Shown piece after piece: positions 1 to 9,051 of a DNA stretch of 64,000 nt (position 1 is its first letter; each line of letters opens with the position of its first letter). The position numbers were made by a program, and so were the translations under genes. This DNA is from Parcubacteria group bacterium GW2011_GWA2_40_23 (GTDB lineage Bacteria > Patescibacteriota > Patescibacteriia > UBA11705 > JABHMO01), in contig LBYP01000003.1 of assembly GCA_000996245.1 (NCBI GenBank), positions 9,509 to 73,508 on the forward strand. Reading direction: 5' to 3'. The notes under the pieces are model-generated. The model was not told the origin of the DNA and did no database searches. It worked only from the letters and a program-made list of their open reading frames with translations.

Positions 1-1053
1 CGTCACTTCACCATAACCGCCGCTTTCGCCAATGAAGGGCATCCAGGCTTCAATGTCGTATTTTTTGTAGGCAGGAGTTCCCAGATCCCCCTTGCACATC
101 AATAAAACACGATAAGGAAGCTTGAGAGCCTGATAGAATTCTTCTTCGATCGAAAGCAATTCTTCGTGAGCCGCGGCACTTTGATCCGGCCGCACAAACT
201 GATAAATCTCAACCTTGCTGAATTGATGAACACGGTAGAGCCCCTTGCTTTCGCGACCACTACTACCTGCTTCTGTTCTGAAGCAGTGACTCACACCAGA
301 AATACGAATCGGAAGGTTCTCTTCTGCAATTACCGTATTGGCCATGTAGCCACCGATAGTAATTTCAGAAGTACCAATCAAGCTTAGAGCACCTTCTGTC
401 AACGAGTAAATCTGACTTTCTGGTCCTCGTGGCGAAAAACCAGAAGCAGAAATAATCTCGTCGCGAGCTAGTTCCGGTGTTGTAACCGGAGTAAAGCCAT
501 ACTTCATTGCAAGATCAAGTGCGTAACGAATGAGGCCAAGCTCAAGAAGAACAGCCTCGTTCTTCAAGTAGTAGAACTTTGCTCCTGCAACTTTCGCTGC
601 TGCCACAAAGTCCAAAATGTCCAAGCGTCGGCCAAGCTCAACATGATCAAGCTTCTGAAAGTCGAACTGCCGCGGCGTTCCCACATGTTTAATGGGAAGA
701 TTGCTTGCTTCGTCTTTCCCTTGGGGAACATCTGAGGCTGCTAAATTGGGAATCCGAAGCATCTCCTCAAGATAGGCTTTTTCCAGGACTGCGAGTTCTT
801 CTTTGAAAACAGCCAGGTGCTGCTTAAGACTTGTCATTTCCAGACGAAGCTGCTCCCTAGTCTCATCACCAGCATTTTTAAACTGCCCTGCAATCTGATT
901 AGCTCGGTGTTGAGCCTCCTCGGCCGCCCTTCTTTTCTGCTTCATTTGCAGATAAAGGGAAACTGTTTTATCAACATCCGCCAAGGCATAACGCTCTTGT
1001 GTGTTCCTTCGCACTAGCTCCACGTTTTCAATGATGAACTGGATATCGAGCAT
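1..1053 (-). CDS. serS: seryl-tRNA synthetase, N-terminal ~350 aa; the 3' end runs off the window start
   Basis: The reverse-strand translation starts MLDIQFIIENVELVRRNTQERYAL... (classic SerRS N-terminal coiled coil). It is followed by the class II core (GTSEITIGGYM, YRVHQFSKVE). ATG is at 1051-1053. Confidence 0.85.
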   Translation of the reverse strand, partial: MLDIQFIIENVELVRRNTQERYALADVDKTVSLYLQMKQKRRAAEEAQHRANQIAGQFKNAGDETREQLRLEMTSLKQHLAVFKEELAVLEKAYLEEMLRIPNLAASDVPQGKDEASNLPIKHVGTPRQFDFQKLDHVELGRRLDILDFVAAAKVAGAKFYYLKNEAVLLELGLIRYALDLAMKYGFTPVTTPELARDEIISASGFSPRGPESQIYSLTEGALSLIGTSEITIGGYMANTVIAEENLPIRISGVSHCFRTEAGSSGRESKGLYRVHQFSKVEIYQFVRPDQSAAAHEELLSIEEEFYQALKLPYRVLLMCKGDLGTPAYKKYDIEAWMPFIGESGGYGEVT

Positions 1054-1230
1054 GGTGCCTCTCCTTTGCGCGCTGTGGCGTTTAGAAATAATCCCTTCTT
1101 TCACAATAATACATTAAACTTAATTGTTAATTTAGTCAAAAAGTTGAATTGACAAATAACCGCTTTAAAGTTAAATTATATTCAGAGGCTAAGAGTAGCA
1201 CACTGAAACTCCAAAAAAGGGGGGGTAAAC

Positions 1231-2421
1231 ATGTCAGCCGAGACGTTAATCGAGAATTCGCTAGTTGTGCATGCGTTCCTGGCAGAAAAAGGTTGGCGAT
1301 CACAGATCTGTACCAAATGTGGCTCAACCTTTTTCATTAAAACTTCTAACTCCACGAATTCAACTTTTTGTGGATGGCACAAGTGTAACAACGGAACCTA
1401 TCCTTTCCGCACACTATCGAAGAGAAAAAGTCTACTAACGATTCAGCAAATCAACACTCGAATGCGTGAGTATTTTCGTTCTGTGGGATTTATACCAATC
1501 CCACCGTTAAACATTGCAAACGCAGCCGGCCAAACAGACCTGGTCATTGCTGGGGTGCAAGTGTTTGATAATATCATCCACAACGAAGAACCAATTCGAG
1601 AAGATCCGTTCTTTATTTCTCAACCTTGTGTGCGGATGCAATTCCAGCCACAAGTAGAATCTCAAGAAGGGACATCCAGCTCTTTTGTAAATGTCTGCAC
1701 TGAGAAAATGGGGGCGGGGATTACCCAGCACCTGCAGACCATAGACCAGTGGTGTACGTTTCTGTCCCAAATGGGTCTTCACATGAATGACTTCGTTCTC
1801 GTGCTGCGGACGCGAACAAACGACTGGGGGACCGGCGCCTTTCAATCCCTTGAGCTTTTCTTCTCCTATGGCGGACTTGAACTCGGGGATGCAGCCTTTG
1901 TGCTGATTCCCCAAGCAAACCGAGACCCAATTCCCATTAGTGATATTGGCTTCGGACTCGAACGAATCGCCTGGGCGGTCAATAAGACCGCTTCGTATTT
2001 CGACCTATTAACGCCCTGGACATCAACAGAATCCAGGGAACTACATGACGCCTGTCGAACTCTTTCTCTCCTCGTCCTCTGCGGAGTACAAGCATCAAAC
2101 AAGGGGCCAGGACTCCAGTTCCGGCGCTTTGCTAAGTTACTCAGCGAGAAATACTATGGGGCTGAACTATATGCCCTAATCCAGTACTACTATAACTACT
2201 GGGCACAGTTCATTGAACCCCATGTCGATTGCGAACAAACATTGTTACGAGCACGTCTCGAGATAGAAAGGTTCATCAACCGGAGGCTCTGTGCAGAGTT
2301 AAAACTTCCCCGGCCCGACGAAGAAACAACCGAAGACTACCTTAATCGGTTGGTATATCTACACGGGGCAAACCTGCACGAGCTACGTAACACAGTACAA
2401 ACATGCAAAAGGCAAAGGTAA
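1231..2421 (+). CDS. AlaRS catalytic-domain-like class II aminoacyl ligase (396 aa) with an N-terminal CxxC...CxxxxC zinc ribbon; no AlaRS editing or C-terminal domains
   Basis: Motif-1-like QTDLVIAGVQVF (compare AlaRS DPTLLFTNAGMNQF). SQPCVRMQ (compare SQRCVRAGG). Motif 3 is PIPISDIGFGLERIAWAV (compare PKPSVDTGMGLERIAAVL). A strong SD (AAGGGGG) precedes the ATG. The 3' end overlaps the next gene by 19 nt. Confidence 0.55.
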   Translation: MSAETLIENSLVVHAFLAEKGWRSQICTKCGSTFFIKTSNSTNSTFCGWHKCNNGTYPFRTLSKRKSLLTIQQINTRMREYFRSVGFIPIPPLNIANAAGQTDLVIAGVQVFDNIIHNEEPIREDPFFISQPCVRMQFQPQVESQEGTSSSFVNVCTEKMGAGITQHLQTIDQWCTFLSQMGLHMNDFVLVLRTRTNDWGTGAFQSLELFFSYGGLELGDAAFVLIPQANRDPIPISDIGFGLERIAWAVNKTASYFDLLTPWTSTESRELHDACRTLSLLVLCGVQASNKGPGLQFRRFAKLLSEKYYGAELYALIQYYYNYWAQFIEPHVDCEQTLLRARLEIERFINRRLCAELKLPRPDEETTEDYLNRLVYLHGANLHELRNTVQTCKRQR

Positions 2422-3098
2422 ACAATCAGATCTATTTGTCGGGGGGAGGAAATGAACACCAATCATTCCCCCTCGACAACTTTTTTTTCAATGCCCTTCC
2501 TAAAAAAGGATTCTTTTTATATATACCCATAGCTCTGCGTGGCCACAAACTTTTTTCAACTGCACCCGCATGGATGAAGGGACTTATCACACTACACAAA
2601 CGAAGGGACTTAACTTTTAAAACTGTTATCAATCTTCAAAAATATAAATTTGAAAATCTAGTTAACATTAATGGAATATATATTGGGGGTGGTAACACTT
2701 GGCTTTTAATGCAAGAGCTTAAGGACTCTCGTTTTGCAGATGTCCTAAATCAATATTTAAAAACTGGCGTCCTTTTATATGGGGGTAGTGCTGGGGCAAT
2801 TGTTTTTGGTAAAAAAATTGATACCCAAAACGATAAAAATGTAGTTAGACTAAAAGACCAGAATGGCTTAAATCTGTTAAATAAATATTCTATTATTTGC
2901 CACTACACTAAAGTTCAGGATGATAACTGTAAAAAATGGACTAAAAAAAATAAACTGCCGCTTATTTGTCTGCCAGAAGAAACGGGCTTGATTATTGAAG
3001 CTGACCAAGCAAGGTGTGTCGGGACAAAACCTTGTATGCTTTATTCGGCAACAGGCAAACAAAAATTGATAAAACCAAACAAATCATTCAACTTATAA
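2403..3098 (+). CDS. peptidase S51 family (dipeptidase E / cyanophycinase-like)
   Basis: GGGN...YGGSAGAIVFG serine-nucleophile motif, ~230 aa, typical S51 architecture. Confidence 0.55.
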   Translation: MQKAKVNNQIYLSGGGNEHQSFPLDNFFFNALPKKGFFLYIPIALRGHKLFSTAPAWMKGLITLHKRRDLTFKTVINLQKYKFENLVNINGIYIGGGNTWLLMQELKDSRFADVLNQYLKTGVLLYGGSAGAIVFGKKIDTQNDKNVVRLKDQNGLNLLNKYSIICHYTKVQDDNCKKWTKKNKLPLICLPEETGLIIEADQARCVGTKPCMLYSATGKQKLIKPNKSFNL

Positions 3099-3139
3099 AA
3101 ACAACCCACCCCTTTGACGAGGTGGGCCGATTGATGTCC

Positions 3140-4399
3140 CTAATACAAGTTCAACTCTCCCTGCACAATCCTTTGCGTCGTTTCGTTGACGTGAAGAAGT
3201 TTGTCTTTGATGATCTCTGCGATCAACTGACGTTGAAGTGTGTTCGCCATGGAACCACAAACTTCAACACAGGCAGACCAGGGATCCGAAAGACTTCGAC
3301 CCATCTGTGAGGTGAGGTAGACATAGGTCTCGAGCCCTGTTTGGGTGAAGATCCCCTCAGAAATGAGAGCGCAAACTGCGGTGTAGATCTTGCCCACGTG
3401 GTAGACAGGATTCTTGCCGCAACAAGCTTCCATGCTCATGTGTCTCGTAAACGGGATCACTCCATTGTAGCGATTCCCGCGACCGACAACACCTTCGTCT
3501 CCGCTTTCGATCGCACTTCCAGTCAATGTCAAATAGTAATCCGATTTACCAGGATTGTCTCTGGTATTTAGAAAGACCTTTACTCCATACTGACTGAAGT
3601 TCCTCTGCACCAAGTTACGAATGAATTCCTCAAGAAATTCAAGTTTCTCGGCGTAGAACAACTTGTCCGGCGTATAGCACGCTACAAACGGAACACAAAC
3701 AGTTATCTCCAGGCGCCTTCTCATCCGCCTGGCCATAACCTTGATATCCGTCCCAACATAGGGATGGAGTTTTTTAAATTCCGGACTGTTAAGCGTGGTT
3801 TCCACGAGCAGCACGATCTTCTCGGTGTTGCTAAGTGGACTGTACGCAACCGCTGTCGAGGTATCGTTCGAGCGGAGATTGTTGTCATGGAAAACAGCAA
3901 ACTCCTTCTCGGGAATTTCGAAAAAGAACTGCCGTTCGTTCTGCGAGGTTCCATCAGCGTCGTATACTACGCCCGGCCCCGGAGCAAAGTGTGTGTTGTC
4001 CACGATCACGAACCAACGATCAAGATCCAGCAAAGGCAAAACTGTCCCAAGGTGCTGAAAGACTGTCTCCCGAACAATATCCAGGTAGGGGATGGTCTCT
4101 TTCTGGTAGCTGCGCGTGAATCGACAATTAAGGTACAGGCGCGTTGGCTTCTGCATCTCACCACCGCCGAACTGAACCTTCGTCGCCCCACCAGAGAGAG
4201 CAATTTTGTCGACCATGTGCCGCAAAATAATTCCATAATGCCTCAAGCAATATTGTGAATATGCCTGAGACACCTTTTCGGCAAGCGTATCGCAAAGAGT
4301 ATCCGGATGTCCGATACCCTTACGCTCGACAACCTCAAATGCCGTCTGGTCGATAGCCAGGGCTCCTGACGAATAAATCAACAAATTACGCTGGTTCAT
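3140..4399 (-). CDS. archaeal-type S-adenosylmethionine synthetase (methionine adenosyltransferase, PF01941-like)
   Basis: VERKGIGHPDTLCD, HPYVGTDIKVM, GDEGVVGRGNRYNG and SMEACCGKNPVYHVGKIY all match archaeal MAT signatures. Length is 419 aa. Confidence 0.85.
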   Translation of the reverse strand: MNQRNLLIYSSGALAIDQTAFEVVERKGIGHPDTLCDTLAEKVSQAYSQYCLRHYGIILRHMVDKIALSGGATKVQFGGGEMQKPTRLYLNCRFTRSYQKETIPYLDIVRETVFQHLGTVLPLLDLDRWFVIVDNTHFAPGPGVVYDADGTSQNERQFFFEIPEKEFAVFHDNNLRSNDTSTAVAYSPLSNTEKIVLLVETTLNSPEFKKLHPYVGTDIKVMARRMRRRLEITVCVPFVACYTPDKLFYAEKLEFLEEFIRNLVQRNFSQYGVKVFLNTRDNPGKSDYYLTLTGSAIESGDEGVVGRGNRYNGVIPFTRHMSMEACCGKNPVYHVGKIYTAVCALISEGIFTQTGLETYVYLTSQMGRSLSDPWSACVEVCGSMANTLQRQLIAEIIKDKLLHVNETTQRIVQGELNLY

Positions 4400-4514
4400 T
4401 TGCGTTCCCTCCTGGCAAGTCGGGGTAAAAGACCTGGGCGAACTGAGTTCAACGTACTATTTATCAAAATCATTGTCAATTGAGTTTTCTCAAAAAATGC
4501 TAAGCTATATTCAA

Positions 4515-4766
4515 GAATAACCGCCCCAGATCGAGGTGTCTCATGACCAAGAAGAGAAGTCGTCCGCTCGCAGGTTTCAAGGGTTCGATACTCGGCGGCA
4601 ACCACCCACTCGACGACCAGACACGCCAAGCCATCGCCGACGCCAGAAGGTTCCGCCCAATAACAGAGACACATTGCCCACGTATTAGACCTCGACCACA
4701 AATGGCTGGTCACGTCGCGGTAACGAAAACGCCCCGCAGATCAATTCTGTGGGGCGCTCTTTTTTT
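4515..4766 (+). other. GC-rich (~58%) unit ending in a strong intrinsic terminator. It is either a structured ncRNA or the remnant of a foreign high-GC gene (the 75-aa ORF 4543-4770 has GC3-rich codons in its first half and an SD GAGGTG).
   Basis: Terminator hairpin CGCCCCGCAGA-tcaat-TCTGTGGGGCG plus a T7 run at 4730-4766. Composition contrasts sharply with the flanking ~35% GC sequence. Confidence 0.3.
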
Positions 4767-4896
4767 ATGATTACTGAATTACAAATATCAGGAGGTTATG
4801 AATTATTAATTGCCGAGGCCCTTCTTCTAACACTGATTACTCGACAAGGCCACCTAATTGTTTTCTTGCTTTTTTGTTTTATTGATTATCGTTTAG

Positions 4897-6024
4897 CTAT
4901 TGTTTTATGGGCATCACAATATACGTATAACTATCATCACCCTTTGGTCGAACAAGAAAAGGAACATTACCATCAACAAGGCTCAGTTCAACTTCTTCGG
5001 CGGAAATATTATTTAGTCCGTCGAGTAAATATCTATAATTCAAAGTTGTTTCATTGTCTTCACCAGCAAAAGCAACCGCCATTTCTGATTTACTTTCACC
5101 GAGTTGTGAGTTGGTGGCCTCAATAATTAATCCCTTGGCTGAATTAAATTTTAAATTCACATCAAAAATCCCCAACTTTGAAAACAGGGCCACGGCCTTA
5201 ATCGACTTAACAAGTTCAGAGGTAGCAACAACAACTTGGGTGCGAGTCTCTGTCGGAATAATTTGTTTATAATCTGGAAATTGACCTTCAATTAGACGAG
5301 AGATGAGTTCAATGCCATCGCAAGAGAACAAAATCTGGTTATCAGAAACAAATATTTGCAAAGCATCAATTTGATTTTCTTGTTCCTTGACCAAACCAAG
5401 CACACGCAAAACTTCTTGTAATGATTTTACTGGAACAATCACGTCTCGTTCCTCTTTGTTGTCGCTAATGGCGAGTGCCTTCTCGGTTAAACGATAACTA
5501 TCTGTTCCTACAAGATGAACCATGCCAGGTTTAATTTTATTGAAAGACATTAAGACGCCGCTGATCTCTGGGCGGGATTCAGAGTTGGCCACAGCAAAAA
5601 CAACTTGTGCCAAAGCTTTTTTAAAATCCTTAATATTTATTTTGTAAGAAGATGTGCGTTCGATCTTAGGTATAACAGGGAAGTCATCTGAGACAATGCC
5701 CTTTATCTTAGTTTCAGAAGAACGACAAGCAACTTTTAAAAAATCGTCCTTGGCTAATTCGAGGTTTACTTGATCGTTTGGTAAAAGACTAATGTATTCA
5801 GAAAGAAGGCGAGCGTCCGCTGTGAAGGCACCTTCAACGTCAACCTTACAACGAACATGACAACTAATTCCAATTTCTAAATTAGTACTAGAAAGTTTTA
5901 CTCCACTGCTATTTGCTTCTAATAAAACATTGTTCAATATTGGGAGGTTAATGTTTTTGTTTACTAAATGTCCTGTTGCTTGTAGTCCAAAGTTTAAGTT
6001 TTCTTGAAGGCACGTAAATTTCAT
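4897..6024 (-). CDS. dnaN: DNA polymerase III beta sliding clamp
   Basis: 375 aa. N-terminus MKFTCLQENLNFGLQ..., three-domain length, located immediately downstream of dnaA. Confidence 0.9.
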   Translation of the reverse strand: MKFTCLQENLNFGLQATGHLVNKNINLPILNNVLLEANSSGVKLSSTNLEIGISCHVRCKVDVEGAFTADARLLSEYISLLPNDQVNLELAKDDFLKVACRSSETKIKGIVSDDFPVIPKIERTSSYKINIKDFKKALAQVVFAVANSESRPEISGVLMSFNKIKPGMVHLVGTDSYRLTEKALAISDNKEERDVIVPVKSLQEVLRVLGLVKEQENQIDALQIFVSDNQILFSCDGIELISRLIEGQFPDYKQIIPTETRTQVVVATSELVKSIKAVALFSKLGIFDVNLKFNSAKGLIIEATNSQLGESKSEMAVAFAGEDNETTLNYRYLLDGLNNISAEEVELSLVDGNVPFLVRPKGDDSYTYIVMPIKQ

Positions 6025-6291
6025 ACTTGTGTTTATTTAAATCTCTTATATATAAAACATAATAATAGTAATAATGCTGTGTATTACAGTGGACAAGTCT
6101 TTAGAAGATTTAATTTTAAAGAAATTTCCCTGTGTGTTCGTCTGTGTTTTGCTTGTGTGTGTTGTTGTGTGTAAGTCGTGCTTTTGATTGTTTTGAGACC
6201 CTCAAAATTTAATCAACAGTTGGAGTAAAAAGTTCTAAACATGTTTTTCCAGATAATTTATACGACTTGTAAACAGTTTATCCAGAGAAAA

Positions 6292-7677
6292 CTAGTGTGC
6301 GTAGACCTTTTGTTTAATTAAATTTATTTCTTGGCGCAGTTTTTCATCGTTTTCAACCAGTCCACTTATCTTTTCGTGTGCGTGCATGGCGGTGGTGTGG
6401 TCGCGTCCACCAAGTTCGTGTCCGATAGTTGGGTAAGAACAGCGCAATTCTTCTCTCAAAAGGTACATGATGACTTGTCTGGGGAAGGCAAAACGTTTTT
6501 CGCGACTCTTGCCCAACATGTCTTGCATGGCGGTATCATAAAACTCGCTAACGAGTTCAATTAATTGGCGGGCAGAAACAGCTCCGCTTTGTTTGCTGGC
6601 AGAAGAAATAGAGAAAAGAACTTTTTTTACATTCTCGAGGGTTGGGGGGATGTGGTTGAGTTGGTGATGAGCGATGATTTTATTGAGAGCGCCCTCAAGC
6701 TCACGAATATTGTTTTGAATGTTCAGTGTAATATATTGAATAATGTCACGTTCCAGTGGAAAGTTTTTTTCTTGGCATTTTGTTTCAAGAATAGCGATAC
6801 GGGTTTCAAGGTCTGGTTGAGAAATGTCTGCAATCATGCCCCATTCAAAGCGAGAAAGAAGGCGATCTTCTAGTGTGGCAATGGCTTTGGGTGGTCTGTC
6901 AGAAGTTAAAACAATTTGTTTGTCACTTTGGTGTAGTGCATTAAAGGTGTGGAAGAAAGTTTCTTGTGTGCCCTCTTTGCCAGCGAGGAATTGAATATCA
7001 TCAATTAGCAAAACATCCGGCGTGCGGTAGGTGGCATTAAACTTTTCTGTTCGGCCAGAAGATACTGCATTGATGAAGTCATTAGTAAATTGTTCACAAG
7101 TGACATAAAGGACTTTTTTCTGTGGTGAATGTCGTTGTATTTCATTTCCGATTGCTTGTATGATGTGAGTTTTACCCAAACCAACACCACCGTAAATAAA
7201 AAGCGGGTTATAAGTTAAACCCGGCTTTTCAGCCACAGCTCTGGCTGCGGCGTGGACTAGTTCATTGCCCTTGCCAACAACGAAAGAATCAAAACAATAC
7301 TTAGCATTTAAGCCAATCGCCTGTTCGCCAATAGCAGGGCGAGTTCTAACCTCTGCCTGGAATTGTTTGGCCTCGGCAATAATGGTCTTTTTGATTTGTT
7401 CTTGTTCTTGGCAGTAGTTCTTAACAGTTTGAACTTTATAAGTAATTTCTTTGATGCGTTCTTTAGACTTGCTTTGGATAATGCGGTAAATGTCGGTGTG
7501 ATATTTCTGTTTTAACCAGGCCTGAGAAAAGGTGTTGGGTACGCCGACAACAATTCTGCCGTCTTCATTTTCGATAATAAAAGTATTTTTGAGCCAAGTT
7601 GTGAAACTTGCCTTGCTTAGGGAGAGCTCAAGCTCCCCGAGGACTGCTTGCCAGAGTTGCTGATTAGCTTCTTCCAT
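6292..7677 (-). CDS. dnaA: chromosomal replication initiator DnaA
   Basis: 461 aa. Walker A GGVGLGKTHIIQAIGNE, AAA+ core, C-terminal DNA-binding domain (…TTAMHAHEKI…). Confidence 0.95.
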   Translation of the reverse strand: MEEANQQLWQAVLGELELSLSKASFTTWLKNTFIIENEDGRIVVGVPNTFSQAWLKQKYHTDIYRIIQSKSKERIKEITYKVQTVKNYCQEQEQIKKTIIAEAKQFQAEVRTRPAIGEQAIGLNAKYCFDSFVVGKGNELVHAAARAVAEKPGLTYNPLFIYGGVGLGKTHIIQAIGNEIQRHSPQKKVLYVTCEQFTNDFINAVSSGRTEKFNATYRTPDVLLIDDIQFLAGKEGTQETFFHTFNALHQSDKQIVLTSDRPPKAIATLEDRLLSRFEWGMIADISQPDLETRIAILETKCQEKNFPLERDIIQYITLNIQNNIRELEGALNKIIAHHQLNHIPPTLENVKKVLFSISSASKQSGAVSARQLIELVSEFYDTAMQDMLGKSREKRFAFPRQVIMYLLREELRCSYPTIGHELGGRDHTTAMHAHEKISGLVENDEKLRQEINLIKQKVYAH

Positions 7678-8098
7678 AGTTTTTTTTGTTTTGTTTTACG
7701 TTTAAAGCTTTTAGCTTCTAGCAAGTTAGCTTATAGGTGCTGAGCTATAAAAGGCTAAACACCTAACAGCTAGAAGCTATTTCCTAGAAGCTTTGTATTG
7801 TAGGTGTTTCTATTTTAGCACGAATGAGTATGTGGACAAGTTGTGATGATCTCTTAAAAACTGCGTAACCTGTTTATAACTTGTTGATAACTGTAAATTA
7901 TATTATCTGAGTTAGTGAAAATATGCAAGAAATAAATTTGGTAAAAGGGAAAAGGGGTATGGGCGAAGGGGAGCTCAAAAACAATTTGATCATAATTAAT
8001 TTTCCCTTATTCCTTACCCCACATCCCATAACCCCTTCTCATTGACAAATCCGCAAAAACAAGCTATTCTATGGTTACTTTACTATTAGACATTTTAT
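7678..8098. promoter_or_regulatory. candidate oriC / dnaA control region
   Basis: DnaA-box-like 9-mers TGTGGACAA (~7831) and TGTTGATAA (~7882). An AT-rich stretch. A long imperfect palindrome at ~7712-7790 (agcttctagc...gctagaagct). An inverted repeat at 7940-8040. A second box cluster lies in the dnaN-dnaA spacer (TTATCCAGA ~6278, AGTGGACAA ~6087). Confidence 0.5.
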
Positions 8099-8245
8099 AT
8101 GCCAAAAAGAACCTTCCAGCCGAACGTTGCTAAGAAACTTAAGAAACAAGGTTTCCGAGCTCGCATGGCTACTAGCGATGGACGAGAAATTATCAAAAGA
8201 CGACGCGCGAAGGGTCGCAAAAGACTAACTGCGTCAGATAAATAA
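8099..8245 (+). CDS. rpmH: 50S ribosomal protein L34
   Basis: Translates to [48 protein letters not shown] (48 aa). Missed by the ORF track because it is under 60 aa. Canonical dnaA-rpmH-rnpA order. Confidence 0.9.
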
Positions 8246-8437
8246 ACGATGGCTTGTCCCAGAAGTTATGCGAAACGTGTGTAATTGAATGGCTTGCCAT
8301 AAAGTTACGCGATTAGCGTATACTTTATGGAAAATTTATTAAAAAGAAGCTACACTGTTAGTAGTTTCTTTTTTGTAAAGTAAAAATAAATTCTATTTAC
8401 TGGTGACTGGTTACAGGTTACTGGTTACCCACGAACT

Positions 8438-8794
8438 ATGCTACAAAAAATATATCGTATAACAAAGCAATTAGAATTTGACGCCTTCTTTGGCAATAAA
8501 TTCAAACAAGCCCGCGGCCGCAATTTTTCTACGGCTAATTTTATTTTTAAGAGTAAGCCAAATGGTTTAAAGAATTCACGTTTTGGTTTTGTTATTTCCA
8601 ACAAAATTGATAATCGCGCAGTCGTCAGAAATCGTCTGCGTCGTTATACCCGTGAGACAATTAGACTCAATTTAGACAAATTTAAACAAAATTTGGATTG
8701 TTTGATTGTCTTTAAAAAAGGTTCACAGACACTGGATCATGAAAAATTAGAAAAAGAAATTTTAGGCATTTTTAAAACAATTAGATTGTTATGA
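8438..8794 (+). CDS. rnpA: ribonuclease P protein component
   Basis: 118 aa, basic. The RNR motif region VVRNRLRRYTRE is present. Follows rpmH. Confidence 0.85.
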   Translation: MLQKIYRITKQLEFDAFFGNKFKQARGRNFSTANFIFKSKPNGLKNSRFGFVISNKIDNRAVVRNRLRRYTRETIRLNLDKFKQNLDCLIVFKKGSQTLDHEKLEKEILGIFKTIRLL

Positions 8795-9051
8795 AATTAA
8801 AAGTTTTTTTATATTATCCTCGATATATCGCGCTTAAGATGATTCGCTTTTATCAGCGAACTATTTCTTTTGATCACAGCCCCATGAAAGAGTTCTTTCC
8901 AGGTGGTTTTTGTCGTTACAATCCATCGTGTTCAGAATATACATATAAATCAATTGAAAAATACGGCTTAATTAAAGGTGGGTTTAAGGGGGCGTGGCGC
9001 ATTATGCGTTGTAATCCTTGGTCAAGGGGTGGCGATGATCCAGTAAAATAG
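8791..9051 (+). CDS. yidD: membrane protein insertion efficiency factor YidD
   Basis: 86 aa. The Cys motif region FCRYNPSCSEY...GGFKGAWRIMRCNPWSRGGDDPV is present. ATGA overlap with the rnpA stop. Confidence 0.85.
   Translation: MKLKVFLYYPRYIALKMIRFYQRTISFDHSPMKEFFPGGFCRYNPSCSEYTYKSIEKYGLIKGGFKGAWRIMRCNPWSRGGDDPVK

What the first reader, a model, noticed from the sequence alone, without database searches (positions are those of the whole stretch)
1231..3098. Stand-alone AlaRS catalytic-domain homolog with a zinc ribbon, coupled to an S51 peptidase
A 396-aa protein carries the three class II AlaRS aminoacylation motifs (…DLVIAGVQVF…, SQPCVRMQ, DIGFGLERIAWAV) but none of the tRNA-recognition, editing or C-Ala domains. 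It gains an N-terminal CxxC-17-CxxxxC ribbon. Its 3' end overlaps a peptidase E/cyanophycinase-family gene by 19 nt, so the two are probably co-translated. It may be the alpha half of a split AlaRS, as occurs in some reduced genomes. It may instead be a tRNA-independent or tRNA-dependent amino-acid ligase paired with a dipeptidase; that would be an unusual pairing.
Basis: partly seen in the sequence, partly recalled or inferred. Interest (0 to 1): 0.55.

Follow-up and report, generated by a model that had tools for sequence, protein, structure and literature searches.

The report
AlaRS-derived ligase, S51 hydrolase, SAM-synthetase cassette
A shortened, strongly diverged copy of the enzyme that loads alanine onto tRNA is always encoded with a small serine hydrolase and a SAM-making enzyme, and usually with a serine-tRNA-loading enzyme; together they form a mobile gene cassette of unknown chemistry in ultra-small (CPR) bacteria, and it is unlikely to be the cell's ordinary alanine-loading enzyme.

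Summary
Both ORFs are real: 1231-2421 (396 aa) and 2403-3098 (231 aa), overlapping by 19 nt. ORF1 is an AlaRS relative (best sequence and fold match: archaeal AlaRS), but two details of the finding are wrong.

- The Cys4 ribbon is inherited from archaeal-type AlaRS, not gained.
- The C-terminal 130 residues are the helical tRNA-recognition domain. [quoted passage not shown]

ORF1 is very probably not a split or housekeeping AlaRS. It scores 46 bits against a 745-bit cutoff. It belongs to an unannotated family of at least 241 clusters at 50% identity.

Gene context is strongly conserved.
- An S51 Ser-His-Glu hydrolase lies immediately downstream in 41 of 42 main-clade loci, and is fused to the ligase in one relative.
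- An archaeal-type SAM synthetase is adjacent in 32 of 32 assessable loci. Other clades have a radical-SAM enzyme or a fused SAM methyltransferase instead.
- A distinct SerRS clade usually sits alongside.

The four genes keep their own GC content across hosts, so they move as a cassette.

Best reading: a non-translational, ATP-dependent amino-acid ligase paired with a hydrolase, acting on a SAM- or adenosine-linked aminoacyl compound. AcmF/AcmE, MshC and MccG are precedents. The chemistry is inferred, not shown.

The parts
1..1053 (-). serS, 5' 351 codons (the gene runs off the left end of the window; full length 446 aa). Cassette-type seryl-tRNA synthetase, transcribed divergently from ORF1.
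   Evidence: 100% identical to 'Serine-tRNA ligase, Parcubacteria bacterium GW2011_GWC2_39_14'. It belongs to a discrete clade of ~88 clusters (56-79% id) found on the same contigs as the AlaRS-like gene. Its GC is 0.47, like the rest of the cassette.
1149..1177 (+). Promoter-like site (TTGACA-17-TAAATT) in the 177-nt serS/ORF1 divergent intergenic region.
   Evidence: Consensus scan, 10 of 12 matches. This is a consensus match only.
1231..2421 (+). AlaRS-like ligase ('ALAL'), 396 aa: N-terminal Cys4 ribbon, class II catalytic core, helical tRNA-recognition-like domain. No editing or C-Ala domain.
1309..1386 (+). Cys4 ribbon (C27, C30, C47, C52).
   Evidence: Invariant in 32 of 32 clade members. 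Aligned with the CPKCG..CGDPPC motif of A. fulgidus AlaRS. Forms a beta-hairpin, residues 22-37, in the model.
1618..1641 (+). Motif 2 'SQPCVRMQ' (Q131, P132, R135).
   Evidence: Q131 131/131, P132 130/131, R135 130/131 across family representatives. R135 corresponds to E. coli AlaRS R69.
1876..1899 (+). Pocket strand 'LELGDAAF' (residues 216-223), aligned with E. coli E209-I-W-N212-I-V214-F.
   Evidence: G219 is near-invariant (124/131). D220 replaces N212: it is invariant in the CPR clade and Asp in 81/131 family-wide. Position 222 is variable. The E. coli pocket residue list comes from PMC12467997.
1939..1965 (+). Motif 3 'SDIGFGLER' (D238, G240, G242, E244, R245).
   Evidence: D238 129/131, E244 130/131, R245 131/131. 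D238 and G240 correspond to E. coli D235 and G237.
2023..2418 (+). Helical tRNA-recognition-like domain (residues ~265-396) with D273, R276, 'ASN290KGPG', 'FRRFAK' and 'LVYLHG'.
   Evidence: Six helices in the model. Aligns to AlaRS Af 340-412 and 9jc7 254-350. D273 123/131, R276 117/131. The Af N359 equivalent is kept (N290). The Af D450 equivalent is Tyr.
2403..3098 (+). S51-family Ser-His-Glu hydrolase, 231 aa; its start overlaps the ORF1 stop by 19 nt.
   Evidence: PF03575, 81.8 bits. S129/H167/E192 align with PepE S120/H157/E192 and are kept in 57/57, 57/57 and 56/57 partners. It lies immediately downstream of the ligase in 41 of 42 main-clade loci, and is fused to the ligase in P0201.
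3102..3129 (.). Hairpin followed by a T-run between the convergent S51 and MAT genes; a possible bidirectional terminator.
   Evidence: Terminator-like scan. Consensus match only.
3140..4399 (-). Archaeal-type methionine adenosyltransferase (SAM synthetase), 419 aa.
   Evidence: PF01941, 345.8 bits. Full-length match to T. kodakarensis MAT 4l4q, E 2e-73, with the GHPD and GDDGxVGRGNR motifs kept. Present in 32 of 32 assessable main-clade loci. The >=60%-identity clade lies on the same contigs as the ligase.

Best explanation
ORF1 is a neofunctionalised descendant of archaeal-type AlaRS. It keeps the Cys4 ribbon, the catalytic core and the acceptor-stem-binding helical domain. It has left translation and acts as an ATP-dependent amino-acid ligase.

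Proposed steps:
1. It adenylates a small amino acid that is probably not alanine. This is inferred from the invariant motif 2 and motif 3 arginines and the alpha-amine-binding Asp, together with a remodelled side-chain pocket.
2. It passes the aminoacyl group to an acceptor that is tied to S-adenosylmethionine. The most likely acceptor is an amine or hydroxyl of SAM or of a SAM-derived adenosyl compound, possibly via a tRNA-type acceptor end.
3. The S51 Ser-His-Glu hydrolase is co-translated with the ligase and sits where the editing domain sits in real AlaRS. It hydrolyses that aminoacyl bond, for trimming, proofreading or self-protection, as the S51 enzyme MccG does with aminoacyl-nucleotides.

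The adjoining archaeal-type MAT supplies the SAM. The cassette's own SerRS either supplies Ser-tRNA or is a protected target copy.

In CPR bacteria the four genes travel together as a horizontally mobile cassette.

Shown: homology, architecture, residue conservation, synteny, fusions, compositional foreignness. Inferred: every catalytic step and the identity of both substrates.
For: Not a normal AlaRS.
- 46 bits against a 744.7-bit cutoff; no Pfam hit.
- 13-18% identity to solved AlaRS structures, despite the same fold.

Likely still catalytic.
- Q131, P132, R135, F152, W199, D238, G242, E244 and R245 are kept in 125-131 of 131 representatives of a family with 241 clusters at E<=1e-30.
- Pocket residues differ from AlaRS: N212 to D220, W211 to G219, V214 to A222. 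They also vary between clades, which suggests differing amino-acid specificity.

Hydrolase partner.
- Adjacent on the same strand in 41 of 42 main-clade loci, with a modal 13-nt overlap, and present in 19 of 20 distant-clade loci.
- Natural fusion P0201 = ligase + S51, in that order.
- Catalytic triad intact.
- S51 enzymes are known to hydrolyse aminoacyl-nucleotides (MccG; PMC9239234).

Link to SAM.
- MAT present in 32 of 32 main-clade loci and 12 of 17 distant ones.
- MAT overlaps the ligase gene in L062 and L085.
- MAT clade members not seen in the ligase list still have the ligase and S51 next door.
- Ligase-SAM-methyltransferase fusions P0212 and P0214 exist.
- Clades without MAT have a conserved radical-SAM gene overlapping the ligase gene.

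Precedents.
- AcmF is a truncated AlaRS-like enzyme that makes alanyl-sulfamoyl-adenosine, with a partner aaRS (AcmD) and hydrolase (AcmE) (PMC12945691).
- Relatives sit among glycosyltransferases, sugar aminotransferases, inositol-1-P synthase, a nucleoside kinase, a phosphatase and other aaRS-like genes plus an S66 (MccF-family) peptidase.

Mobility.
- Cassette GC stays at 0.42-0.54 against flanks of 0.35-0.63.
- Flanking genes differ in every host.
- The cassette SerRS clade is discrete, and its next relatives are non-CPR.
Against: - No biochemical datum exists for any member.
- Neither the amino acid nor the acceptor can be read from sequence.
- The CPR cassette has no tailoring enzyme, transporter or obvious acceptor-making enzyme apart from MAT. 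MAT and SerRS could therefore simply be housekeeping genes that hitch-hike with the pair.
- In L003 two tRNA-Ser genes sit beside serS, as expected for a housekeeping serS.
- Retention of the whole acceptor-stem-binding domain, of N290 (= Af N359) and of basic residues fits real tRNA charging as well as it fits this model.
- The cassette S51 is not in the MccG clade: its triad has Glu, not Asp.
- I could not show that a canonical alaS co-exists in the same genome.
Confidence: 0.45

Rival explanations
1. Genuine minimal AlaRS for translation: either a mini-AlaRS like that of Tupanvirus, or the catalytic subunit of a split enzyme. The S51 hydrolase would act in trans in place of the editing domain, clearing Ser- or Gly-tRNA-Ala.
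For: - The domain content equals the N-terminal AlaRS fragment that is sufficient for charging.
- R69, W170, D235 and G237 equivalents are kept.
- N290 = Af N359 is kept in the CPR clade.
- In the fusion P0201 the hydrolase sits exactly where the editing domain would be.
- No alaS lies in the window or its flanks.
Against: - 46 bits against a 745-bit cutoff.
- The N212 equivalent is Asp, the pocket is enlarged, and the Af D450 equivalent is Tyr. Yet a cassette-bearing contig's tRNA-Ala has the standard G3:U70.
- The family is sporadic: about 180 clusters at 90% identity in 5.8 billion proteins. It is horizontally mobile and occurs in sugar- or nucleoside-type clusters fused to methyltransferases.
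- This reading gives no reason for the obligate SAM-synthetase or radical-SAM partner.
Confidence: 0.12
2. Resistance cassette against aminoacyl-adenylate-type or nucleoside antibiotics. The S51 enzyme would detoxify aminoacyl-nucleotides as MccG does. The foreign SerRS, the archaeal-type MAT and the AlaRS-like enzyme would be drug-insensitive replacement targets.
For: - S51 peptidases confer resistance by cleaving aminoacyl-nucleotides.
- Extra aaRS copies are the classic self-resistance device in producers of aaRS inhibitors (general knowledge; AcmD and the SbzA context).
- The cassette is mobile and compositionally foreign.
- The SerRS clade is foreign to CPR.
- L090 combines S51, S66 (MccF family) and several aaRS-like genes.
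Against: - The AlaRS-like protein is too diverged and too altered in its pocket to look like a working AlaRS.
- Tight translational coupling and fusion of ligase with hydrolase argue that the hydrolase acts on the ligase's own product, not on an external toxin.
- No PADLOC hit, although that library covers anti-phage systems only.
Confidence: 0.13
3. Macromolecule-modifying enzyme in the manner of EpmA/EpmB (LysRS paralog plus radical-SAM enzyme, beta-lysylating EF-P) or GluQRS (GluRS paralog, aminoacylating a tRNA base). The ligase would attach an amino acid to a tRNA nucleoside or to a tRNA-mimicking protein. SAM-dependent enzymes would make or further modify the group.
For: - The acceptor-stem-binding domain and basic patch are retained.
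- A conserved radical-SAM partner occurs in several clades.
- Methyltransferase fusions with weak TRM5/TYW2-like hits exist.
- SerRS and tRNA genes are often nearby.
Against: - No candidate target gene is conserved in the neighbourhood, and no dedicated tRNA is present.
- This reading gives no role for a peptidase-type hydrolase.
- Glycosyltransferase, sugar-aminotransferase and inositol contexts in relatives fit small-molecule or glycan chemistry better.
Confidence: 0.15
4. No joint function: a decaying AlaRS paralog and a nutritional dipeptidase that merely sit beside two housekeeping genes near the replication origin.
For: SerRS and MAT are essential-type enzymes. The window copy lies next to dnaN and dnaA.
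Against: - The association persists at 30% identity, in different gene orders, and in bacteria and apparent archaea.
- Fusions exist.
- Strong purifying selection: 63% mean column identity.
- The neighbourhood outside the cassette differs in every host.
Confidence: 0.03

Closest known systems
AcmF / AcmD / AcmE of ascamycin biosynthesis (Streptomyces sp. 80H647)
   Same: AcmF is a truncated AlaRS-like protein with only the aminoacylation and tRNA-recognition domains. It works outside translation, joins an amino acid to an adenosine derivative, and is clustered with a bona fide aaRS (AcmD) and a hydrolase that reverses the reaction (AcmE) (PMC12945691). The logic of ligase + aaRS + hydrolase + adenosine-type scaffold matches ALAL + SerRS + S51 + MAT.
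   Different: AcmF has lost most ATP- and alanine-activation residues (N219Q, D232E) and depends on Ala-tRNA. ALAL keeps the motif 2 and motif 3 arginines and D238. Its partner aaRS is SerRS rather than AlaRS, and its hydrolase is S51 rather than an alpha/beta hydrolase. The scaffold enzymes also differ (MAT or radical SAM rather than sulfamate chemistry). I could not compare the sequences directly because no AcmF sequence was available.
Archaeal-type AlaRS N-terminal fragment; N. equitans AlaRS-alpha; Tupanvirus mini-AlaRS
   Same: Same fold and domain order. Shares the N-terminal Cys4 motif with A. fulgidus AlaRS, the class II motifs and the DxxR/PSN helical domain. It is a stand-alone protein without editing and C-Ala domains, like mini-AlaRS and AlaRS-alpha.
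   Different: Only ~18% identity. Fails every AlaRS model cutoff. The pocket Asn is Asp and the G3-reading Asp is Tyr. It is longer than N. equitans alpha, which corresponds to E. coli 368N. It is locked to S51 and MAT partners that no AlaRS has.
MccG (S51) and MccF (S66) immunity peptidases of microcin C-like antibiotics
   Same: ORF2 is an S51 peptidase with an intact nucleophile elbow and His. MccG shows that this family can hydrolyse the amide between an amino acid and a nucleotide, i.e. an aminoacyl-adenylate mimic. A relative's cluster (L090) carries both S51 and S66 genes next to aaRS-like genes.
   Different: MccG-clade enzymes use Ser-His-Asp and are specific for (iso)aspartyl-nucleotides. 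ORF2 uses Ser-His-Glu like PepE, is roughly equidistant from all solved S51 structures (E ~1e-6), and is coupled to an aaRS-like enzyme rather than to a MccB-type adenylyltransferase.
MshC (mycothiol cysteine ligase, a CysRS paralog)
   Same: An aaRS catalytic-domain paralog that adenylates an amino acid and transfers it to the amine of an amino-sugar-inositol instead of to tRNA. Relatives of ALAL sit beside inositol-1-phosphate synthase, GT1/GT4 glycosyltransferases, a polysaccharide deacetylase, sugar aminotransferases and a phosphatase.
   Different: MshC is class I (CysRS-derived). It has no S51 or MAT partner. The CPR cassette itself has no sugar enzymes.
EpmA/EpmB (PoxA/YjeK) and GluQRS
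   Same: Truncated aaRS paralogs that aminoacylate a non-canonical acceptor. EpmA works with a radical-SAM enzyme, as several ALAL clades may.
   Different: They derive from different aaRS parents (LysRS, GluRS). No hydrolase partner is known for them. The radical-SAM partner here has an N-terminal CxxxCxxC and a SPASM-like C-terminus, unlike lysine 2,3-aminomutase (sequence; my reading).

Membership tests
Canonical alanyl-tRNA synthetase (TIGR03683 / TIGR00344 / PF01411) | Score at or above the curated family cutoff | tested here: not met
   TIGR03683 46.1 bits vs 744.7; TIGR00344 15.7 vs 457; no Pfam hit at E<=1. Ten distant relatives score 18-60 bits.
Canonical alanyl-tRNA synthetase | Class II fold with motifs 2 and 3 and the alanine/ATP-site residues R69, W170, D235, G237 (E. 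coli numbering) | tested here: met
   The equivalents R135, W199, D238 and G240 are present and near-invariant family-wide. The fold is confirmed by Foldseek.
Canonical alanyl-tRNA synthetase | Alanine-pocket residues M43, N212 (and V214) | tested here: not met
   M43 becomes V109, N212 becomes D220, W211 becomes G219, V214 becomes A222. The alignment to E. coli rests on my recalled sequence. The A. fulgidus part is confirmed.
Canonical alanyl-tRNA synthetase | G3:U70-reading pair (Af Asn359 and Asp450) | tested here: not met
   N290 aligns with Asn359, but it is Asn in only 55 of 131 family representatives. The Asp450 position (LYDSHG) reads LVYLHG, i.e. Tyr.
Canonical alanyl-tRNA synthetase | Editing domain (HxxxH / CxxxH) and C-Ala domain | tested here: not met
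   The protein ends at residue 396, after the helical domain. No editing motif occurs anywhere in the window.
Split AlaRS, alpha subunit (N. equitans type) | A partner AlaRS-beta (rest of the recognition domain + editing + C-Ala) encoded in the genome | not testable with these tools
   None is found in the 64-kb window, in 10 kb to the left, or in the flanks of ~90 loci. The rest of the genome could not be searched.
Split AlaRS, alpha subunit (N. equitans type) | Same break point (about E. coli residue 368) and ordinary AlaRS-level sequence similarity | tested here: not met
   ALAL contains the segment equivalent to LYDSHG, which is in the N. equitans beta subunit. Its similarity is far below AlaRS level.
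AcmF-type aa-tRNA-dependent AlaRS-like transferase | Truncated AlaRS-like protein with aminoacylation + tRNA-recognition domains only | tested here: met
   definition.
AcmF-type aa-tRNA-dependent AlaRS-like transferase | Loss of ATP- and amino-acid-activation residues (N219Q, D232E in AcmF) | tested here: not met
   D238, R135 and R245 are invariant or near-invariant. Only the Asn position is changed, to Asp.
AcmF-type aa-tRNA-dependent AlaRS-like transferase | Uses aminoacyl-tRNA as donor and an adenosine derivative as acceptor | not testable with these tools
   Only context is available: SerRS and MAT in the cassette.
Peptidase family S51 (ORF2) | Pfam PF03575 above the gathering score, and the Ser-His-Glu/Asp triad | tested here: met
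   81.8 bits vs 23.9. S129/H167/E192 are kept in 57/57, 57/57 and 56/57 partners and align with PepE S120/H157/E192 (PepE sequence recalled, numbering agrees).
Dipeptidase E (PepE equivalog NF003642) / cyanophycinase (TIGR02069) | Score at or above the equivalog cutoff | tested here: not met
   63.4 bits vs 156; 31 bits vs 126.6.
MccG clade of S51 | Ser-His-Asp triad; cleavage of aspartyl-nucleotides | tested here: not met
   The third triad residue is Glu, against Asp in the MccG clade. Activity is not testable here.
Archaeal-type methionine adenosyltransferase (neighbour 3140-4399) | PF01941 above cutoff with catalytic motifs; NCBIfam equivalog cutoff | tested here: inconclusive
   PF01941 345.8 bits vs 27, and a full-length match to 4l4q with GHPD/GRGNR motifs kept. 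However, 310.7 bits is below the 553-bit equivalog cutoff and 303.1 is below the 435-bit subfamily cutoff.

The most novel reading that the evidence does not exclude
The ligase joins an amino acid (serine-like) to SAM or to a SAM-like adenosyl amino acid, giving an 'aminoacyl-SAM', a previously unknown class of SAM-derived metabolite. This compound may serve CPR and DPANN symbionts as an aminoacyl-adenylate mimic or aaRS inhibitor. The fused or co-translated S51 hydrolase and the cassette's own SerRS would then provide self-protection. This would be a new enzymology for an aaRS scaffold and the first small-molecule weapon or signal assigned to these ultra-small organisms.
Probability: 0.15. 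Interest if true: 0.88.

Novelty: new variant of a known kind. Interest (0 to 1): 0.68.

Why it matters
aaRS paralogs that left translation (AsnA, HisZ, MshC, EpmA, GluQRS, AcmF) have each revealed new chemistry. This AlaRS-derived family is large: at least 241 clusters at 50% identity. It has no annotation in Pfam or NCBIfam, and every source names its members 'hypothetical protein'.

Its gene context is unusually informative. It has an obligate S51 hydrolase, which is fused to it in one lineage, and an obligate link to SAM. That link takes the form of a dedicated archaeal-type MAT, a radical-SAM enzyme or a fused methyltransferase.

In CPR bacteria, whose genomes are stripped to essentials, the four genes move between hosts as a unit. 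They therefore probably confer a selectable trait: a metabolite, a resistance or a modification.

The work also corrects the view that the Cys4 ribbon is a novelty, and it shows that S51 'dipeptidases' may more generally be partners of adenylate-forming enzymes. The module is only three or four small soluble proteins, so reconstitution in vitro is straightforward.

Tried and rejected
Co-occurrence with a canonical alaS in species genomes could therefore not be tested.
- No alaS, AlaX or editing motif was found in the window by regex, among large window ORFs by Pfam, in 10 kb left of the window, or in the flanks of 83 loci by phmmer.
- Rfam and ARAGORN found no RNA gene or dedicated tRNA in or beside the cassette. 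The only tRNAs lie elsewhere in the window. There is no consistent tRNA across 37 loci.
- PADLOC gave no hit for any of the three proteins.
- The AFDB Foldseek library was unavailable.
- Literature searches found nothing on the AlaRS-like/S51/MAT combination or on archaeal-type MAT in CPR.
- Pfam found nothing for the recurrent unknown neighbours: the 450-570 aa protein, and the 312-aa and 353-aa proteins.
- Does Asp220 track MAT-containing contexts, as a possible sulfonium-binding residue? No clean correlation. Radical-SAM clades also have Asp, and the MAT-linked fusion clade has Val or Ile.
- Is the ORF-poor GC-rich 3 kb left of serS a decayed alaS? tblastn found nothing.
- DnaA-box scan gave no clear cluster.
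- 'Defence system' and 'pseudogene' readings were rejected for lack of any support.


Full report
**1. Observation**

The window is part of contig UT32_C0002 of Parcubacteria group bacterium GW2011_GWC2_39_14, a CPR bacterium: ORF1 is 100% identical to its hypothetical protein UT32_C0002G0010.

- ORF1 (1231-2421, +, 396 aa) and ORF2 (2403-3098, +, 231 aa) exist as described and overlap by 19 nt.
- ORF1 has a G-rich ribosome-binding site and a promoter-like site at 1149-1177.
- ORF2 is a clear Peptidase_S51 member (81.8 bits).
- ORF1 has no Pfam hit. Its only detectable relatives among known families are AlaRSs:
  - TIGR03683, E 2e-12 but only 46 bits against a cutoff of 744.7;
  - A. fulgidus AlaRS by sequence;
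  - archaeal, then bacterial and human AlaRS catalytic fragments, then GlyRS-alpha, by fold (model pLDDT 87.9, pTM 0.88).

**2. Two corrections to the description**

- The Cys4 ribbon is not a gain. HMMER aligns 'ICTKCGSTFF...FCGWHKC' with 'CPKCGKHFW...CGDPPC' of A. fulgidus AlaRS. The four cysteines are present in 84 of 131 family representatives and have been lost in some clades.
- The protein is not catalytic-domain only. Residues ~265-396 form six helices. They align with the AlaRS tRNA-recognition domain: D273-x-x-R276 with 'aDHxR', 'ASN290KGPGLQFRRFAK' with 'PSNaGaGYlaRlmiRR', and 'LVYLHG' with Af 'LYDSHG'.
- Foldseek aligns ~490 columns with archaeal AlaRS and 420-435 with the 441-residue bacterial fragments.
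- The architecture therefore equals the N-terminal AlaRS fragment that suffices for charging, as in Tupanvirus mini-AlaRS and AcmF. It is longer than N. equitans AlaRS-alpha, which stops at about E. coli residue 368 and leaves the LYISKG/LYDSHG segment in the beta subunit.

**3. A large, unannotated family**

- A word-indexed search found 181 proteins, mostly 390-400 aa and 50-65% identical, all 'hypothetical' and all from Patescibacteria-type sources.
- An exhaustive profile search of 1.84 billion cluster representatives found 241 at E<=1e-30 and 496 at E<=1e-3.
- Over 131 full-length representatives, these are kept in 125-131 sequences: Q131, P132, R135 (motif 2), F152, W199, D238, G242, E244, R245 (motif 3). 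D273 and R276 are kept in 123 and 117.
- These are the residues that in class II synthetases hold ATP and the alpha-amino group. E. coli AlaRS R69, W170, D235 and G237 are listed as substrate-binding in PMC12467997. I infer that adenylate chemistry is retained.
- The strand lining the side-chain pocket is changed. E. coli E-I-W-N212-I-V214-F and Af E-V-A-T-L-V-F become E-L-G-D220-A-A-F. D220 is invariant in the CPR clade. Positions 220 and 222 vary between clades (GD.., G[VI]AN..), as expected if clades activate different amino acids.
- Ten distant relatives also score only 18-60 bits on AlaRS models.

**4. Gene context**

I fetched 79 metagenomic loci with a family alignment and scored their ORFs against the window's four proteins.

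- Main clade, 47 non-redundant loci:
  - S51 lies immediately downstream on the same strand in 41 of 42 assessable loci, with a modal overlap of 13 nt.
  - PF01941 MAT is present in 32 of 32.
  - serS is adjacent in almost every locus long enough to judge; L036 and L086 are the exceptions.
  - serS lies sometimes upstream of the ligase (window, L003) and sometimes beyond MAT (L001).
- Distant clades, 30-37% identity and mostly without the ribbon:
  - S51 is present in 19 of 20 and MAT in 12 of 17.
  - The order is often MAT>ligase>S51 with overlapping stops and starts (L062, L065, L072).
- Clades lacking MAT carry a conserved ~305-aa radical-SAM/SPASM-like gene overlapping the ligase gene, plus an unknown 450-540-aa protein, S51 and often SerRS (L067, L075, L083, L089).
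- GC-rich relatives lack S51 but keep MAT directly beside or overlapping the ligase. They sit among glycosyltransferases, methyltransferases, radical-SAM enzymes, DegT and class III aminotransferases and a GFO/IDH/MocA oxidoreductase (L084, L085).
- Fusions exist: P0201 = ligase + S51; P0212 and P0214 = ligase + class I SAM methyltransferase; P0203 = ligase + ~270 aa, glycosyltransferase-like by eye.
- P0201's locus (L090) reads radical SAM > MAT > ligase-S51. Further on it holds two class II aaRS-like genes, a methyltransferase, an AspRS/AsnA-like gene and an S66 (MccF-family) peptidase.
- Starting from MAT instead: the clade with >=60% identity to the window's MAT lies on the same contigs as the ligase. 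Two members not in the ligase list (L086, L087) also have S51 and the ligase next door.

**5. The partners look functional**

- S51: S129, H167 and E192 align with PepE S120, H157 and E192 and are kept in 57/57, 57/57 and 56/57 partners.
- MAT aligns end to end with T. kodakarensis MAT (E 2e-73), with the GHPD and GDDGxVGRGNR motifs and one insertion.
- SerRS has both the N-terminal arm and the class II core.

**6. A mobile cassette**

- Across hosts, the four genes keep a GC of 0.42-0.54 while the flanks range from 0.35 to 0.63. The cassette is richer than the host in the window (0.456 vs 0.387), L022 and L034, and poorer in L003 and L036.
- The flanks differ in every host:
  - dnaN/dnaA here;
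  - thyA and ribosomal protein genes in L001;
  - conjugation-type genes in L003;
  - a restriction-modification locus in L087;
  - nucleotide-sugar genes in L086.
- The cassette SerRS is a discrete clade of ~88 clusters (56-79% identity). Its next-best relatives are Treponema, Rectinema and Micavibrio SerRSs at 50-53%, not CPR enzymes.
- On the window's own contig, the GC-rich stretch begins right after a tRNA-Trp gene about 4.5 kb left of the window.

**7. Interpretation**

The split or housekeeping AlaRS reading is disfavoured for these reasons:
- the extreme divergence;
- the altered pocket, and Tyr at the G3-reading Asp position, while a cassette-bearing contig has a normal G3:U70 tRNA-Ala;
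- the sporadic, mobile distribution;
- the obligate S51 and SAM partners;
- the absence of any AlaRS-beta or AlaX nearby.

It is not excluded, because I could not search whole genomes.

The positive model rests on three precedents.
- AcmF is a truncated AlaRS-like enzyme that builds alanyl-sulfamoyl-adenosine, with AcmD (aaRS) and AcmE (hydrolase).
- MccG is an S51 peptidase that hydrolyses aminoacyl-nucleotides.
- MshC is an aaRS paralog that acylates an amino-sugar-inositol (my own knowledge).

Combined with the tight coupling to MAT or radical-SAM enzymes, the most economical reading is as follows. ORF1 adenylates a small amino acid and transfers it to a SAM-linked (adenosine-type) acceptor, perhaps via a tRNA-like acceptor end. 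S51 hydrolyses the resulting aminoacyl bond. S51 occupies the place of the editing domain both in gene order and in the fusion.

The synteny, fusions, conservation and mobility are shown. Every chemical step is inference.

**8. Rivals and verdict**

Rivals, with my probabilities:
- minimal AlaRS with S51 as trans-editor: 0.12;
- resistance cassette with replacement targets plus a detoxifying S51: 0.13;
- tRNA or protein modification, EpmA/GluQRS-like: 0.15;
- no joint function: 0.03.

The finding is real and more interesting than stated, but for partly different reasons. It is a new variant of a known kind, namely aaRS paralogs recruited to non-translational ligation. It has an unprecedented partner set and a clear route to experimental test.

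Noticed in passing
window 4897-7677, 7678-8437 and 8438-9051: dnaN (4897-6024, -) and dnaA (6292-7677, -) lie next to the cassette. GC skew changes sign near 6 kb. An ORF-free stretch of ~760 bp precedes dnaA, and rnpA/yidD follow it. The cassette therefore sits within a few kb of the probable replication origin. DnaA-box matches are not clearly clustered.
   Followed up: partly
window 2403-3098, and the S51 genes of L001, L006, L022, L034, L045, L055: Within the cassette, the S51 gene is consistently 5-13 GC points lower (0.33-0.39) than the ligase, MAT and serS (0.43-0.56), whatever the host. Unexplained.
   Followed up: no
L091 4227-8533 (same contig, left of the window; window position 1 = L091 8771): The GC-rich stretch starts right after tRNA-Trp (4227-4302). 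It contains a 253-aa ORF with GC 0.59 and no Pfam hit, then ~3 kb almost devoid of ORFs (GC 0.47-0.56) with no Rfam match and no AlaRS remnant, then tRNA-Gly and tRNA-Leu, then serS. It may be a larger, partly decayed island.
   Followed up: partly
L067 98-1003, L075 242-1186, L083 2676-3611, L089 3038-3967; L080 4380-5990, L083 3604-5073, L089 1667-3031: In clades without MAT, the ligase-S51 pair is accompanied by an orthologous ~305-aa radical-SAM enzyme (N-terminal CxxxCxxC, SPASM-like C-terminus) and by a conserved 450-540-aa protein with no Pfam match.
   Followed up: partly
L090 5456-16977: One locus strings together radical SAM, MAT, the ligase-S51 fusion, two class II (2b + HGTP anticodon) aaRS-like genes, a UbiE-type methyltransferase, a tRNA-synt_2 (AspRS/AsnA-like) gene and an S66 (MccF-family) peptidase. 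That makes a second 'aaRS-like + Ser-His-Glu peptidase' pair.
   Followed up: no
window 1-1053 (serS): The cassette SerRS clade's nearest outside relatives are spirochaete (Treponema, Rectinema) and Micavibrio SerRSs at 50-53% identity rather than CPR enzymes. This suggests a foreign origin for this serS.
   Followed up: partly
window 3140-4399 (MAT residues ~130-165): Relative to T. kodakarensis MAT, the CPR enzyme has an insertion of about 18 residues ('...YDADGTSQNERQFFFEIPEKEFAVFHDNNL...'). It also falls below all NCBIfam MAT cutoffs despite conserved catalytic motifs.
   Followed up: no
L080 3422-4183, with L075, L076, L083: The ribbon-less radical-SAM clade sits beside a ribosomal protein L1 that looks archaeal in type. 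The family may therefore span DPANN archaea as well as CPR bacteria. This is judged by eye only.
   Followed up: no
window 4400-4896: A ~500-bp intergenic stretch lies between MAT and dnaN. It has a strong hairpin followed by a T-run at 4730-4756 (+) and only a doubtful 105-aa ORF.
   Followed up: no
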